Source: Flaccisagitta enflata
Taxonomy: Eukaryota
Reading direction: 5' to 3'
Length of the DNA stretch: 64,000 bases
Assembly (NCBI GenBank): GCA_965153355.1
Contig: OZ231126.1
Span: forward strand, 41,292,001 to 41,356,000
The notes under the pieces are model-generated. The model worked only from the letters and a program-made list of their open reading frames with translations, did not search any database and was not told the DNA's origin. Made by a program: the position numbers and the translations under genes. This document shows, one piece after another, positions 58,701-59,843 of the stretch; the stretch's first letter is position 1, and the number at the start of each line of letters is the position of its first letter.

Positions 58701-59843
58701 TGTGTGTGTGTCTGTCTGTCTGTCTGTCTGTCTGTCTGTCTGTCTGTCTGTCTGTTTGTCTGTGTGTGTAAACAAGAGACAGACAATAATCAAAAAGCTT
58801 CATGATGTGCTGAAATAAAGCAGTTCCTCGTTGCTTCTAACAACAAAACTTGATTCAGTCATGGTATTGATTGATTGATTGATTGGTTGGTTGGTTGGTT
58901 CATGAAAGTTTGTATCTATTCCTTCATTTCATTATGAACTCATTCAATTTCATCTCCTAGTCGATGAGGGATTGTGATGCTATCGGTATTTGCGGTACGG
59001 GCCGCGGTGATTCATTCATCATTTTATTCAGCTATTCGTTATTCCATTCCCATTGCCTCAGGCAACGATTGGGGTTGTGACGCCGGTGGAGTTTGTGGAA
59101 TGGGCCGAGGCCCAAATCAGGAGAAGTTCTACTCGTGCGCTGACGTGGCCATCACCAATTCTGGTATCAGCTCCAGTGGCAGCTCTGGCTCCGGAAGCGG
59201 TGGCTCCGGAACCGGATCAGACTCTGCAACCAACTCGGGCTGGGGCGGCTGGGGCAGCTGGTGGTGGAAGAGGTAGGTGATGGGAAAGAGCGTTGGTGGA
59301 ATTTATGCGTGTTGGGCAATGGGCATTAGTGATTTTTTGGTAGAAGAGTGAGGTGGTGTGCGCAATTATTAAAAAAAAATAACTCTCTTTTAATTACGTT
59401 TCGGTCATTTAGGGAGATGGAGAAGAAAGACGAGATGGATCTCTCTCCAACCAATAATGTGGAGACAGAGGAGGCTCCTACTAAGCCCGAAGATCCACTA
59501 CACAAAATCATTTTGAACATGATTGCAGGACTAGCACAACAGGTGTGTGATGCTTAGAAGAGATAGGAGGAGAGGAAAACACACACACGCACACGCACAC
59601 ACACACACACACACACACACACACACACACATCCACACACACACACACATACACATCCACACACACACACACACACTCACACATACATACATACACACAC
59701 AATATTTTTTTCATGTTTACAAACATTTTTCTCACCTTTCTTCCCCTCAAAATCAGATTTGCCAGAAATATACGAGCGGAAAGGGTCGTACTCAATGCCT
59801 TCATTTCCAGACGCTTCGTATCCTCGGTGAATTGAAGAAATAG
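55749..59843 (+). CDS. Secreted AA15-type lytic polysaccharide monooxygenase, paralog 1 (7 coding exons, ~306 aa; ~235 aa if intron 5 is not spliced)
   Basis: Exons 55749-55805, 56385-56441, 56807-56914, 58118-58388, 59062-59272, 59413-59542, 59757-59843; all GT-AG and phase-consistent. Signal MQLFSCIVVVLMAFAFISQANG then His1 (HAYMSDP), CGVCG, TVNHQGWF, LPPGFTCNHCILRWRW, GNDWG, QEKFYSCADVAI. The last two exons are less certain. Confidence 0.9.
55884..56236 (-). mobile_element. Family A HINE-like variant in intron 1 of LPMO paralog 1
   Basis: AACAAGGCCAACAC...internal AGACTAAA/ATGACTT repeats...(GACC)n...ATAGAGTCGCCTGCACGCGACT; same subfamily as 32947-33146. Confidence 0.75.
57152..57770. mobile_element. 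Degenerate foldback/MITE in intron 3 of LPMO paralog 1
   Basis: GACGCACTGAAA ... TTTCAGTGCGTC ends; inner GCTCATTGAAAATTTTAAATTTGCAT / ATGCAAATTTAAAATTTTCAGTGAGC. Confidence 0.7.
58412..58583. mobile_element. Small Tc1/mariner(pogo)-like MITE in intron 4 of LPMO paralog 1
   Basis: TA-CAGTGAAATTCCGCTCTAA ... TTAGAGCGGGGCTTAACTG-TA. Confidence 0.7.

What the first reader, a model, noticed from the sequence alone, without database searches (positions are those of the whole stretch)
59062..59843. LPMO paralog 1 swaps the CBM14 for a Gly/Ser linker, a Trp cluster, a KR site and an unfamiliar acidic/2-Cys tail
Seen: after CADVAI the frame reads TNSGISSSGSSGSGSGGSGTGSDSATNSGWGGWGSWWWKR. Phase-compatible splicing (59272^59413, 59542^59757) continues EMEKKDEMDLSPTNNVETEEAPTKPEDPLHKIILNMIAGLAQQ-ICQKYTSGKGRTQCLHFQTLRILGELKK*. 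Established: AA15 LPMOs usually occur alone or with CBM14/other carbohydrate modules; KR is the classic proprotein-convertase dibasic site; Trp residues stack on polysaccharide or insert at membrane interfaces. Inference: a secreted pro-protein whose C-terminal piece is removed to expose a tethered five-Trp peptide acting as a minimal binding or anchoring module. I do not recognise this architecture.
Basis: partly seen in the sequence, partly recalled or inferred. Interest (0 to 1): 0.8.

Follow-up and report, generated by a model that had tools for sequence, protein, structure and literature searches.

The report
LPMO with a new repeatable tail
A marine animal's gene for a copper enzyme that attacks chitin-like fibres (an AA15-type LPMO) really does carry, in place of the usual chitin-binding module, a spliced-on tail of unknown family: a tryptophan patch followed by a small two-cysteine helical unit. 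It is one more of the many unexplained LPMO tails, not a new kind of system.

Summary
Both are spliced out in marine metatranscriptome contigs about 95% identical to the window, from 2 runs of one study.

The 71-residue tail has two parts: a fast-changing acidic spacer without predicted structure, and a conserved, cationic, amphipathic helix-break-helix with two Cys. It matches no Pfam family. It resembles none of the tails of the 150 best AA15-like relatives. Its only relatives are three short exon-6 ORFs.

New here: contigs from both runs join an exon-7-like end, in frame and without a stop, to the start of exon 6. So in the relative the exon pair is iterated, with K-K-R at the boundary.

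About half of AA15 sequences already carry C-terminal regions of unknown function, enriched in Cys (PMC8615602). This is therefore a new variant of a known kind.

I think the tail most likely stays attached as an association module (0.4). Cleavage at K-R is the main rival (0.25) and is untested. Interest 0.35.

The parts
55749..55805 (+). Exon 1 of paralog 1: start codon and signal peptide
   Evidence: ATG located and the frame joined to exon 2; donor GTAATG. No RNA evidence for this exon.
56385..56441 (+). Exon 2: end of the signal peptide, then the N-terminal His of the mature LPMO. It is shortened compared with paralog 2.
   Evidence: The conserved SAWR[YF]GF...GDG segment, present in paralog 2 and all 6 relatives in the alignment that cover this region (2 of the 8 others begin further downstream), is missing.
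56807..56914 (+). Exon 3 of the LPMO domain
   Evidence: 52% identical to paralog 2 exon 3; lacks the GGKYG loop.
58118..58388 (+). Exon 4: LPMO core with the second His of the histidine brace
   Evidence: Pfam LPMO_10 E 2.7e-5, 25.4 bits against a cut-off of 23. PDB 5msz (Thermobia AA15) E 1.3e-4. 76% identical to paralog 2. Its 3' end is contiguous with exon 5 in an RNA contig.
59062..59156 (+). Exon 5, first part: C-terminal end of the LPMO domain
   Evidence: 5 of 5 differences from the relative's contig are synonymous.
59157..59240 (+). Exon 5, Gly/Ser-rich linker
   Evidence: 15-nt tandem duplication at 59186-59215. 2 amino-acid changes and 1 synonymous change against the relative.
59241..59272 (+). 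Exon 5, Trp cluster (five Trp in nine residues) and K-R; the Arg codon is completed by 59413
   Evidence: 9-nt unit x2.7 at 59238-59261. No listed difference in the relative's contig.
59273..59412 (+). Intron 5 (140 nt, GT..AG, phase 2); in-frame TAG at 59274-59276 if retained
   Evidence: Joint in X1 contig 1; depth 0 over the intron.
59413..59497 (+). Exon 6, acidic spacer (28 residues, net charge about -7)
   Evidence: No secondary structure, pLDDT 59-70. 6 of 6 differences in the contigs change the amino acid. 8-residue insertion in P0002.
59498..59542 (+). Exon 6, first amphipathic helix
   Evidence: Helix 28-42; mean pLDDT 91 over residues 31-40. Hydrophobic moment 0.4-0.55. Only 2 synonymous differences in the contigs. 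Nearly invariant in P0001, P0002 and P0154.
59543..59756 (+). Intron 6 (214 nt, GT..AG, phase 0), with a (CA)n microsatellite at 59579-59701
   Evidence: Loose ends behind 59542 equal the start of exon 7.
59757..59843 (+). Exon 7: two Cys (59760-59762 and 59796-59798, C-x12-C), second helix, K-K, stop
   Evidence: Helix 10-29 of the 30-residue piece, mean pLDDT 87.9, single sequence. Site 59817 is the branch point between the terminal and the internal exon-7 form in the relative's contigs.
60445..64000 (+). Paralog 2: the same LPMO exons, then a Thr-rich linker and a CBM14 exon (from 63846; cut by the window end)
   Evidence: (CBM_14 E 7.2e-6).

Best explanation
Paralog 1 is a transcribed seven-exon gene for a secreted AA15-type LPMO. 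It has lost two conserved loops, and its CBM14 has been replaced by a lineage-restricted modular extension.

The extension starts with a Gly/Ser linker and a Trp patch, both grown by short tandem DNA duplications. Then comes a 'tail unit' encoded by an exon pair that begins and ends in phase 2. The unit has a disordered, rapidly changing acidic spacer followed by a conserved, cationic, amphipathic helix-break-helix with two Cys. Because its phases are symmetrical, the unit can be iterated, and in a roughly 95% identical relative it is iterated at least twice in frame.

Shown: the exons, the splicing, the link to the LPMO mRNA, the unit's composition, its conservation pattern, and its iteration.

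Inferred: the tail stays attached and does the job of the lost CBM14 in another way. It would hold the enzyme on a surface or matrix through the aromatic patch and the cationic amphipathic helices. It could also join enzyme molecules through its Cys, possibly in a redox-dependent way.
For: - Gene model and frame.
- Spliced RNA linking exons 4, 5, 6 and 7.
- The tail sits where paralog 2 and the closest full-length relative P0004 carry a linker plus CBM14.
- An exon-7-like end is joined in frame to exon 6 in contigs of 2 runs. The piece lengths (54 = 30 + 24 nt; 60 nt) fit a k = 31 graph branching at 59817 (k recalled, not from a call). Iterated small C-terminal modules separated by flexible linkers are the usual layout of binding modules (general knowledge).
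- Selection pattern: 0 amino-acid changes and 2 silent changes in the helix, against 6 and 0 in the spacer (Fisher p = 0.036).
- The helix is nearly invariant in 3 database relatives.
- Helices are predicted.
- Net charge is -7 for the spacer and +6 for the helical part.
- Precedent: LPMO C-terminal regions of unknown function are common in AA15, Cys-enriched and predicted redox-sensitive (PMC8615602). One fungal AA9 tail dimerises the enzyme through a disulfide, which raises binding and activity (PMC10990093, abstract).
Against: - No binding, oligomerisation or localisation data exist.
- The tail has few aromatic residues and matches no CBM.
- K-R stands at both unit boundaries, which also fits cleavage.
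- The helix predictions were made on single exons, one of them from a single sequence. The spliced tail could not be folded, so the hairpin and the intramolecular disulfide are guesses.
- The iterated form may belong to a different gene of the relative.
- The window itself holds only one unit.
Confidence: 0.4

Rival explanations
1. Pro-protein model (the first reader's, extended). A dibasic-specific convertase cuts after K-R at every unit boundary. This leaves an enzyme that ends in the Trp patch and releases one or more roughly 70-residue two-Cys peptides with a function of their own.
For: - K-R precedes the unit at 2 of 2 boundaries seen: W-W-W-K-R in the window and L-K-K-R in the relative's contigs.
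- The unit begins with an acidic stretch and ends in K-K.
- Units iterated between dibasic sites resemble multi-copy peptide precursors (general knowledge).
- The acidic-then-cationic layout recalls antimicrobial peptide precursors (recalled).
Against: - No Arg at P4 at either site, so it is not a furin-type R-X-K/R-R site (recalled consensus).
- The Arg is the AG|G junction codon, and the Lys residues belong to a Lys-rich unit end.
- There is no basic site between the acidic spacer and the cationic helices, so a released unit would be nearly neutral (net -1).
- Two full-text searches (LPMO + proprotein convertase, 2 papers; lytic polysaccharide monooxygenase + Kex2, 14 papers with 8 listed) showed, by title and start of abstract, no native C-terminal processing of an LPMO.
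Confidence: 0.25
2. Regulatory tail. The His- and Cys-bearing helices fold back on the flat copper face, or switch between disordered and folded states with redox conditions. This would cap or tune the active site rather than target the enzyme.
For: - 51% of AA15 disordered tails are predicted redox-sensitive (PMC8615602).
- An accessory domain whose histidines reach the AA10 copper was proposed from AlphaFold3 for EcLPMO (PMC12767849, abstract).
- The tail unit holds two Cys and two His.
Against: - No model of the spliced protein could be made.
- Iteration of the unit is hard to reconcile with a one-to-one cap.
- There is no classical copper motif.
Confidence: 0.1
3. Young, largely neutral appendage. 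A microsatellite-prone genome grew the linker and Trp run by slippage, and the gene captured a downstream exon pair after losing its CBM14 exons. On this view the tail has no specific function, and the LPMO itself may be decaying.
For: - Tandem DNA repeats underlie the linker and the Trp cluster.
- The window is crowded with microsatellites.
- Paralog 1 lacks two loops conserved in paralog 2 and in the 6 or 7 relatives that cover them.
- The tail family is tiny: 3 relatives, all short ORFs.
Against: - Silent-only changes in the LPMO part of exon 5 (5 of 5) and in the helix (2 of 2).
- The gene is expressed and correctly spliced in a relative.
- All ten Cys, which are conserved in Thermobia LPMOs and in their best crustacean, mollusc, insect and spider matches (PMC5823890), and both His of the brace are kept.
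Confidence: 0.15

Closest known systems
C-terminal regions of unknown function / disordered C-terminal regions (dCTR) of LPMOs (Tamburrini et al. 2021, PMC8615602; passages and section 3.5 read)
   Same: - A region of more than 30 residues after the catalytic domain with no known module.
- Ser/Gly-rich and polyampholytic.
- Ordered and disordered stretches alternate, and Cys are present, as that paper describes for AA15.
   Different: - That class is defined by exclusion and by composition, not by homology.
- This tail has a discrete conserved helical unit encoded by an exon pair, and the unit is iterated in a relative.
- No such unit, Trp patch or dibasic boundary is mentioned in the passages I read. 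The paper's supplements were not seen.
CoAA9A dCTR (Colletotrichum orbiculare AA9; PMC10990093, abstract read)
   Same: A Cys-bearing C-terminal tail on a secreted LPMO. There the tail stays attached and dimerises the enzyme through a disulfide.
   Different: - Fungal AA9, not animal AA15, with no sequence relation tested or expected.
- This tail has two Cys per unit, which could pair within the unit instead.
AA15 LPMO with linker and CBM14 (paralog 2 in the window; P0004, P0007, P0011, P0013)
   Same: Same catalytic domain (76% identity in exon 4 between the paralogs), same exon layout up to exon 5, and the same position of the appendage.
   Different: - Thr/Pro linker and a six-Cys CBM14, instead of a Gly/Ser linker, a Trp patch and a two-Cys helical unit.
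- The tail gives no CBM_14 match.
Multi-copy secretory peptide precursors cut at dibasic sites (general knowledge, recalled)
   Same: Iterated units, each preceded by K-R; acidic spacer within each unit; secretory route.
   Different: - The units hang on a full enzyme domain.
- No furin-type P4 Arg, no amidation signal, and no basic site between spacer and helices.
- Cleavage is not shown.
P0053, an unnamed AA15-like protein (334 residues) from the representative library
   Same: Analogous layout: polar low-complexity linker, Trp-rich stretches, an R-R pair, and a C-terminal amphipathic stretch with one Cys.
   Different: No detectable sequence similarity to this tail (best blastp E 0.36 in the low-complexity part). 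Its helix is my reading of the sequence and was not predicted.

Membership tests
AA15 LPMO | Sequence similarity to characterised AA15 / LPMO models | tested here: met
   Exon 4: Pfam LPMO_10 25.4 bits against a cut-off of 23. PDB 5msz Thermobia AA15 E 1.3e-4. 141 of the 150 best library matches carry LPMO_10.
AA15 LPMO | N-terminal His exposed by signal-peptide cleavage, plus a second His (histidine brace) | tested here: met
   The His follows a hydrophobic leader ending A-N-G. The cleavage site is read by eye; no predictor was run. The second His aligns with the His of 5msz and of relatives.
AA15 LPMO | Ten Cys conserved in Thermobia LPMOs and in their best crustacean, mollusc, insect and spider matches (PMC5823890, passage read) | tested here: met
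   10 Cys lie between the signal peptide and the K-R. They align with those of paralog 2.
AA15 LPMO | Conserved SAWR[YF]GF...GDG segment and GGKYG loop | tested here: not met
   Both are absent from paralog 1. In the 9-sequence alignment, the first segment is present in paralog 2 and in all 6 relatives that cover it, and the GG[KYL][YF] loop in paralog 2 and all 7 relatives. I took these as hallmarks from that alignment, not from a published definition.
AA15 LPMO | Copper binding and oxidative cleavage of chitin or cellulose | not testable with these tools
   Needs the expressed protein.
CBM14 (peritrophin-A) as the appendage | Pfam CBM_14 match / six-Cys pattern | tested here: not met
   No Pfam match for exons 5, 6 or 7 at E <= 1. 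The tail has only 2 Cys.
LPMO dCTR / UNK region (PMC8615602) | At least 30 residues after the catalytic domain with no known module | tested here: met
   The extension runs about 109 residues after the catalytic end and has no Pfam family.
LPMO dCTR / UNK region (PMC8615602) | At least 20 consecutive residues predicted disordered | tested here: inconclusive
   No disorder predictor was available. AlphaFold2 gives no secondary structure and pLDDT 59-70 for the 27 acidic residues. The linker is Gly/Ser-rich.
Proprotein-convertase substrate | Basic motif (K/R)-Xn-(K/R) before the cut; furin type R-X-K/R-R (recalled) | tested here: inconclusive
   K-R is present at both boundaries. P4 is Trp or Leu, so the furin-type motif is not met. 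No cleavage predictor was available.
Proprotein-convertase substrate | Cleaved products in vivo | not testable with these tools
   Needs proteomics.
GPI-anchored LPMO | Hydrophobic C-terminal signal | tested here: not met
   The last windows have mean hydrophobicity of 0.15 or less, and the protein ends in charged residues.

The most novel reading that the evidence does not exclude
The gene is a hybrid of an enzyme and a polypeptide precursor. After dibasic cleavage it would yield a Trp-tagged, trimmed LPMO plus one or several copies of a conserved two-Cys cationic helical peptide. That peptide would act on its own, for example on microbial membranes or as a signal, and the number of units would vary between close relatives.
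Probability: 0.2. Interest if true: 0.75.

Novelty: new variant of a known kind. Interest (0 to 1): 0.35.

Why it matters
About half of AA15 sequences (51%) carry C-terminal regions whose function nobody knows (PMC8615602). This locus offers a clean natural comparison. Two neighbouring paralogs share the catalytic exons, but one carries CBM14 and the other a small, well-delimited, repeatable unit.

That makes the role of such tails directly testable by domain swaps, truncations and Cys mutants. If the units prove to be cut off at the K-R boundaries, this would be, as far as my two full-text searches show, the first LPMO that doubles as a peptide precursor. If not, it is one more lineage-specific tail.

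Tried and rejected
- Word-based protein search with exon 6 against longer proteins: 4 candidates, none scored.
- The same search with exon 4: 15 candidates, none scored. No full-length spliced copy of this protein was found.
- JGI metagenome contigs with the exon-6 alignment: 444 pattern matches, 0 confirmed.
- A degenerate DNA pattern for the nine conserved helix residues: 18 loci. In all 18 the match stops at the motif, so these are chance hits.
- ESM Atlas with exon 6: no usable hit.
- Own genome: none is held. Other copies of the unit, or a collapsed tandem array in this assembly, could not be looked for.
- Raw-read RNA run X5: 0 reads laid, so no test. Run X2: 0 contigs laid.
- phmmer and blastp of the extension against the 158 proteins held: only the three exon-6 ORFs matched. 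P0053, P0009, P0026 and P0128 have other non-CBM tails but show no similarity.
- Trp cluster followed by a dibasic pair: 0 of 150 relatives. WWW-like runs: 10 of 150. Eight lie inside the catalytic stretch, one is undetermined and one is in a tail.
- GPI anchor and CBM14 rejected.
- Back-splicing as the source of the exon-7-to-exon-6 join rejected. The window has no GT after exon 7, and the contig letters differ from the window there.
- Poly(A) signal: no AATAAA or ATTAAA between the stop and the next gene.
- A bacterial promoter/terminator scan was irrelevant for a eukaryote.
- Earlier findings of this scan: nothing in 3 look-ups.
- The organism was not identified. Cluster look-up gave no names.

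Full report
**What is there.** The window is eukaryotic and crowded with microsatellites. It holds two neighbouring AA15-type LPMO genes on the + strand.

Paralog 1 has seven exons: 55749-55805, 56385-56441, 56807-56914, 58118-58388, 59062-59272, 59413-59542 and 59757-59843. All introns are GT..AG, and the product is 306 residues. Exon 4 matches Pfam LPMO_10 (25.4 bits, cut-off 23) and the Thermobia AA15 structure 5msz (E 1.3e-4).

Exons 6 and 7 continue in frame to a TAG at 59841-59843.

Paralog 2 (from 60445) has the same catalytic exons, then a Thr-rich linker and a CBM14 exon (Pfam E 7.2e-6).

**RNA evidence.** One search for sequencing runs gave four marine metatranscriptome runs of a single study, each holding a small share of the words, plus one unindexed raw-read run. 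I laid 58930-59575 on X1, X2, X3 and X5.

- X1 contig 1 (363 nt) carries the end of exon 4, all of exon 5 (10 other letters in 211) and the first 30 bases of exon 6. It skips 140 bases with GT..AG ends.
- X1 contig 2 (192 nt) and X3 contig 4 (390 nt) cover exon 6 (7 other letters in 132 each). They continue with letters identical to the first 30 bases of exon 7.
- No contig covers intron 5.
- X2 and X5 laid nothing and are no test.

So both junctions exist in spliced RNA of a roughly 95% identical relative, and the tail belongs to the LPMO transcript. Two limits apply: this is one study, and contigs cannot show rare isoforms.

**An unexpected join.** In X1 (contig 3, 84 nt) and X3 (contig 4), the letters before exon 6 are not exon 5. 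They are the end of an exon-7-like sequence, with one change at 59817 and no stop. It is joined so that the frame reads E-L-K-K-R-E-M-E.

The piece lengths fit a k = 31 assembly graph that branches at 59817 (k is recalled, not from a call). Contig 2 stops 60 nt into exon 7, just before that site. Contig 3 starts 30 nt before the site and runs the remaining 24 nt of the exon.

A false join would need a shared 30-mer, and the window shows none there. Back-splicing is unlikely, because no GT follows exon 7 in the window and the letters after the exon differ.

I conclude that in the relative the exon 6 + exon 7 pair, which starts and ends in phase 2, is iterated at least twice in frame. The window has a single copy. 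Whether the iterated form sits on the LPMO gene or on another gene is open, although both inflows merge into the same exon-6 sequence in X1.

**Anatomy of the tail.** The 71 residues after K-R fall into two parts:

- an acidic part: 28 residues, net charge about -7, pI 4.05;
- a cationic part: 43 residues, net charge about +6, pI 10.0, with two Cys spaced C-x12-C.

AlphaFold2 on exon 6 with its two database relatives gives no secondary structure for residues 1-27 (pLDDT 59-70). It gives a helix at 28-42, with mean pLDDT 91 over residues 31-40. A 30-residue piece made of two intron-coded residues plus exon 7, folded as a single sequence, gives a helix at 10-29 (mean pLDDT 87.9). Hydrophobic moments of 0.4-0.55 mark the first helix as amphipathic.

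The spliced tail itself could not be folded. The hairpin and the disulfide are therefore inferences.

**Conservation.** I compared the window with the contigs.

| Region | Amino-acid changes | Silent changes |
|---|---|---|
| LPMO part of exon 5 | 0 | 5 |
| Gly/Ser linker | 2 | 1 |
| Trp cluster and K-R | 0 | 0 |
| Acidic spacer | 6 | 0 |
| First helix | 0 | 2 |

The spacer-against-helix contrast gives Fisher p = 0.036.

Three short ENA ORFs (P0001, P0002, P0154) are genomic read-throughs of exon-6 homologues. They keep the helix nearly invariant, while the spacer varies and carries an 8-residue insertion in P0002. At the DNA level, the linker and the Trp cluster lie on 15-nt and 9-nt tandem duplications.

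**Is the tail known?**

- Pfam finds nothing in exons 5-7.
- The word-based search found no longer protein with the unit.
- Two JGI metagenome scans and the ESM Atlas gave nothing.
- A profile of exon 4 from both paralogs found 251 library proteins at E <= 0.001. Of the best 150, 141 carry LPMO_10, 5 CBM_14, 2 GH19 and 1 GH18.
- My pattern for the LPMO C-terminal end matched 42 of the 150, and 33 of those have 30 or more residues after it. The other 108 were not inspected for tails.
- None of the 158 proteins held resembles this extension, apart from the three exon-6 ORFs.
- No relative has a Trp cluster followed by a dibasic pair: 0 of 150.
- P0053 has an analogous but unrelated layout.

**Literature.**

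- PMC8615602 (passages and section 3.5) reports regions of unknown function in 51% of AA15 sequences and disordered tails in 32%. It also reports Cys enrichment, alternating ordered and disordered segments, and predicted redox sensitivity in 51% of AA15 tails.
- PMC5823890 (passages) reports extensions in about a third of AA15 members outside Thermobia, most of them assignable to CBM families. It also reports ten Cys conserved in the Thermobia LPMOs and their best crustacean, mollusc, insect and spider matches.
- PMC10990093 (abstract) shows a fungal AA9 tail that dimerises the enzyme by a disulfide.
- PMC12767849 (abstract) proposes an accessory domain that reaches the copper.

Two searches for LPMO with 'proprotein convertase' or 'Kex2' showed, by their listings, no native C-terminal processing. 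Supplements were closed and may list similar AA15 tails.

**Interpretation.** I regard the anatomy as settled, and I rate the function as follows.

- **Attached association module, 0.4.** The unit takes the place of CBM14. It has the look of an iterated small module on flexible linkers. Its conserved part is the amphipathic Cys-bearing helices. The characterised LPMO tail I read about stays attached.
- **Cleavage at K-R, 0.25.** The dibasic pair recurs at both boundaries. Against it: there is no P4 Arg, the Arg is the codon a phase-2 junction tends to make, and a released unit would be nearly neutral.
- **Regulatory or redox cap, 0.1.**
- **Young neutral appendage, 0.15.**

**Verdict.** This is a new variant of a known kind, an LPMO with an uncharacterised C-terminal region. 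Interest 0.35.

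Noticed in passing
window 56385-56914 (exons 2-3 of paralog 1), intron 2 at 56442-56806: Paralog 1 lacks two segments: SAWR[YF]GF...GDG and the GGKYG loop. The first is present in paralog 2 and in the 6 aligned relatives that cover it, the second in paralog 2 and all 7 relatives. By eye, intron 2 seems to hold decayed remains of the lost half of exon 2, interrupted by a GACC/GACA-type repeat. A nucleotide alignment recovered only the first 30 bases.
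   Followed up: partly
window 58973-59032 (intron 4 of paralog 1): A degenerate partial copy of the start of exon 5 (a C-D-A-x-G-x-C-G-x-G-R-G-like frame) lies about 30-90 bases upstream of the real exon. tblastn gives E 0.018 within the window. The nucleotide alignment is weak.
   Followed up: partly
window, whole; e.g. 58590-58770, 59579-59701, 61550-61670, 62060-62570: Very high density of microsatellites, including inside the introns of both LPMO genes. Several library relatives (P0006, P0010, P0012) are genomic ORFs that run into the same HSFI-type repeat translation. This suggests related, similarly repeat-rich genomes.
   Followed up: no
window about 18889-20560, + strand: ORF pieces whose motifs, from my recollection only, look like a sodium:solute symporter of the choline-transporter type. 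No family search was run.
   Followed up: no
P0005 (3231 residues, representative library): This protein matched the exon-4 profile in 13 separate stretches (136.9 bits). One member of the 150 carries strong cadherin and fibronectin matches, but I did not check whether it is this protein or why it matches.
   Followed up: no
P0009, P0026, P0053, P0128 (representative library): Four AA15-like proteins end in non-CBM tails that, by eye, hold amphipathic helical stretches. P0053 also has Trp-rich stretches and an R-R pair. None is similar in sequence to this tail.
   Followed up: partly
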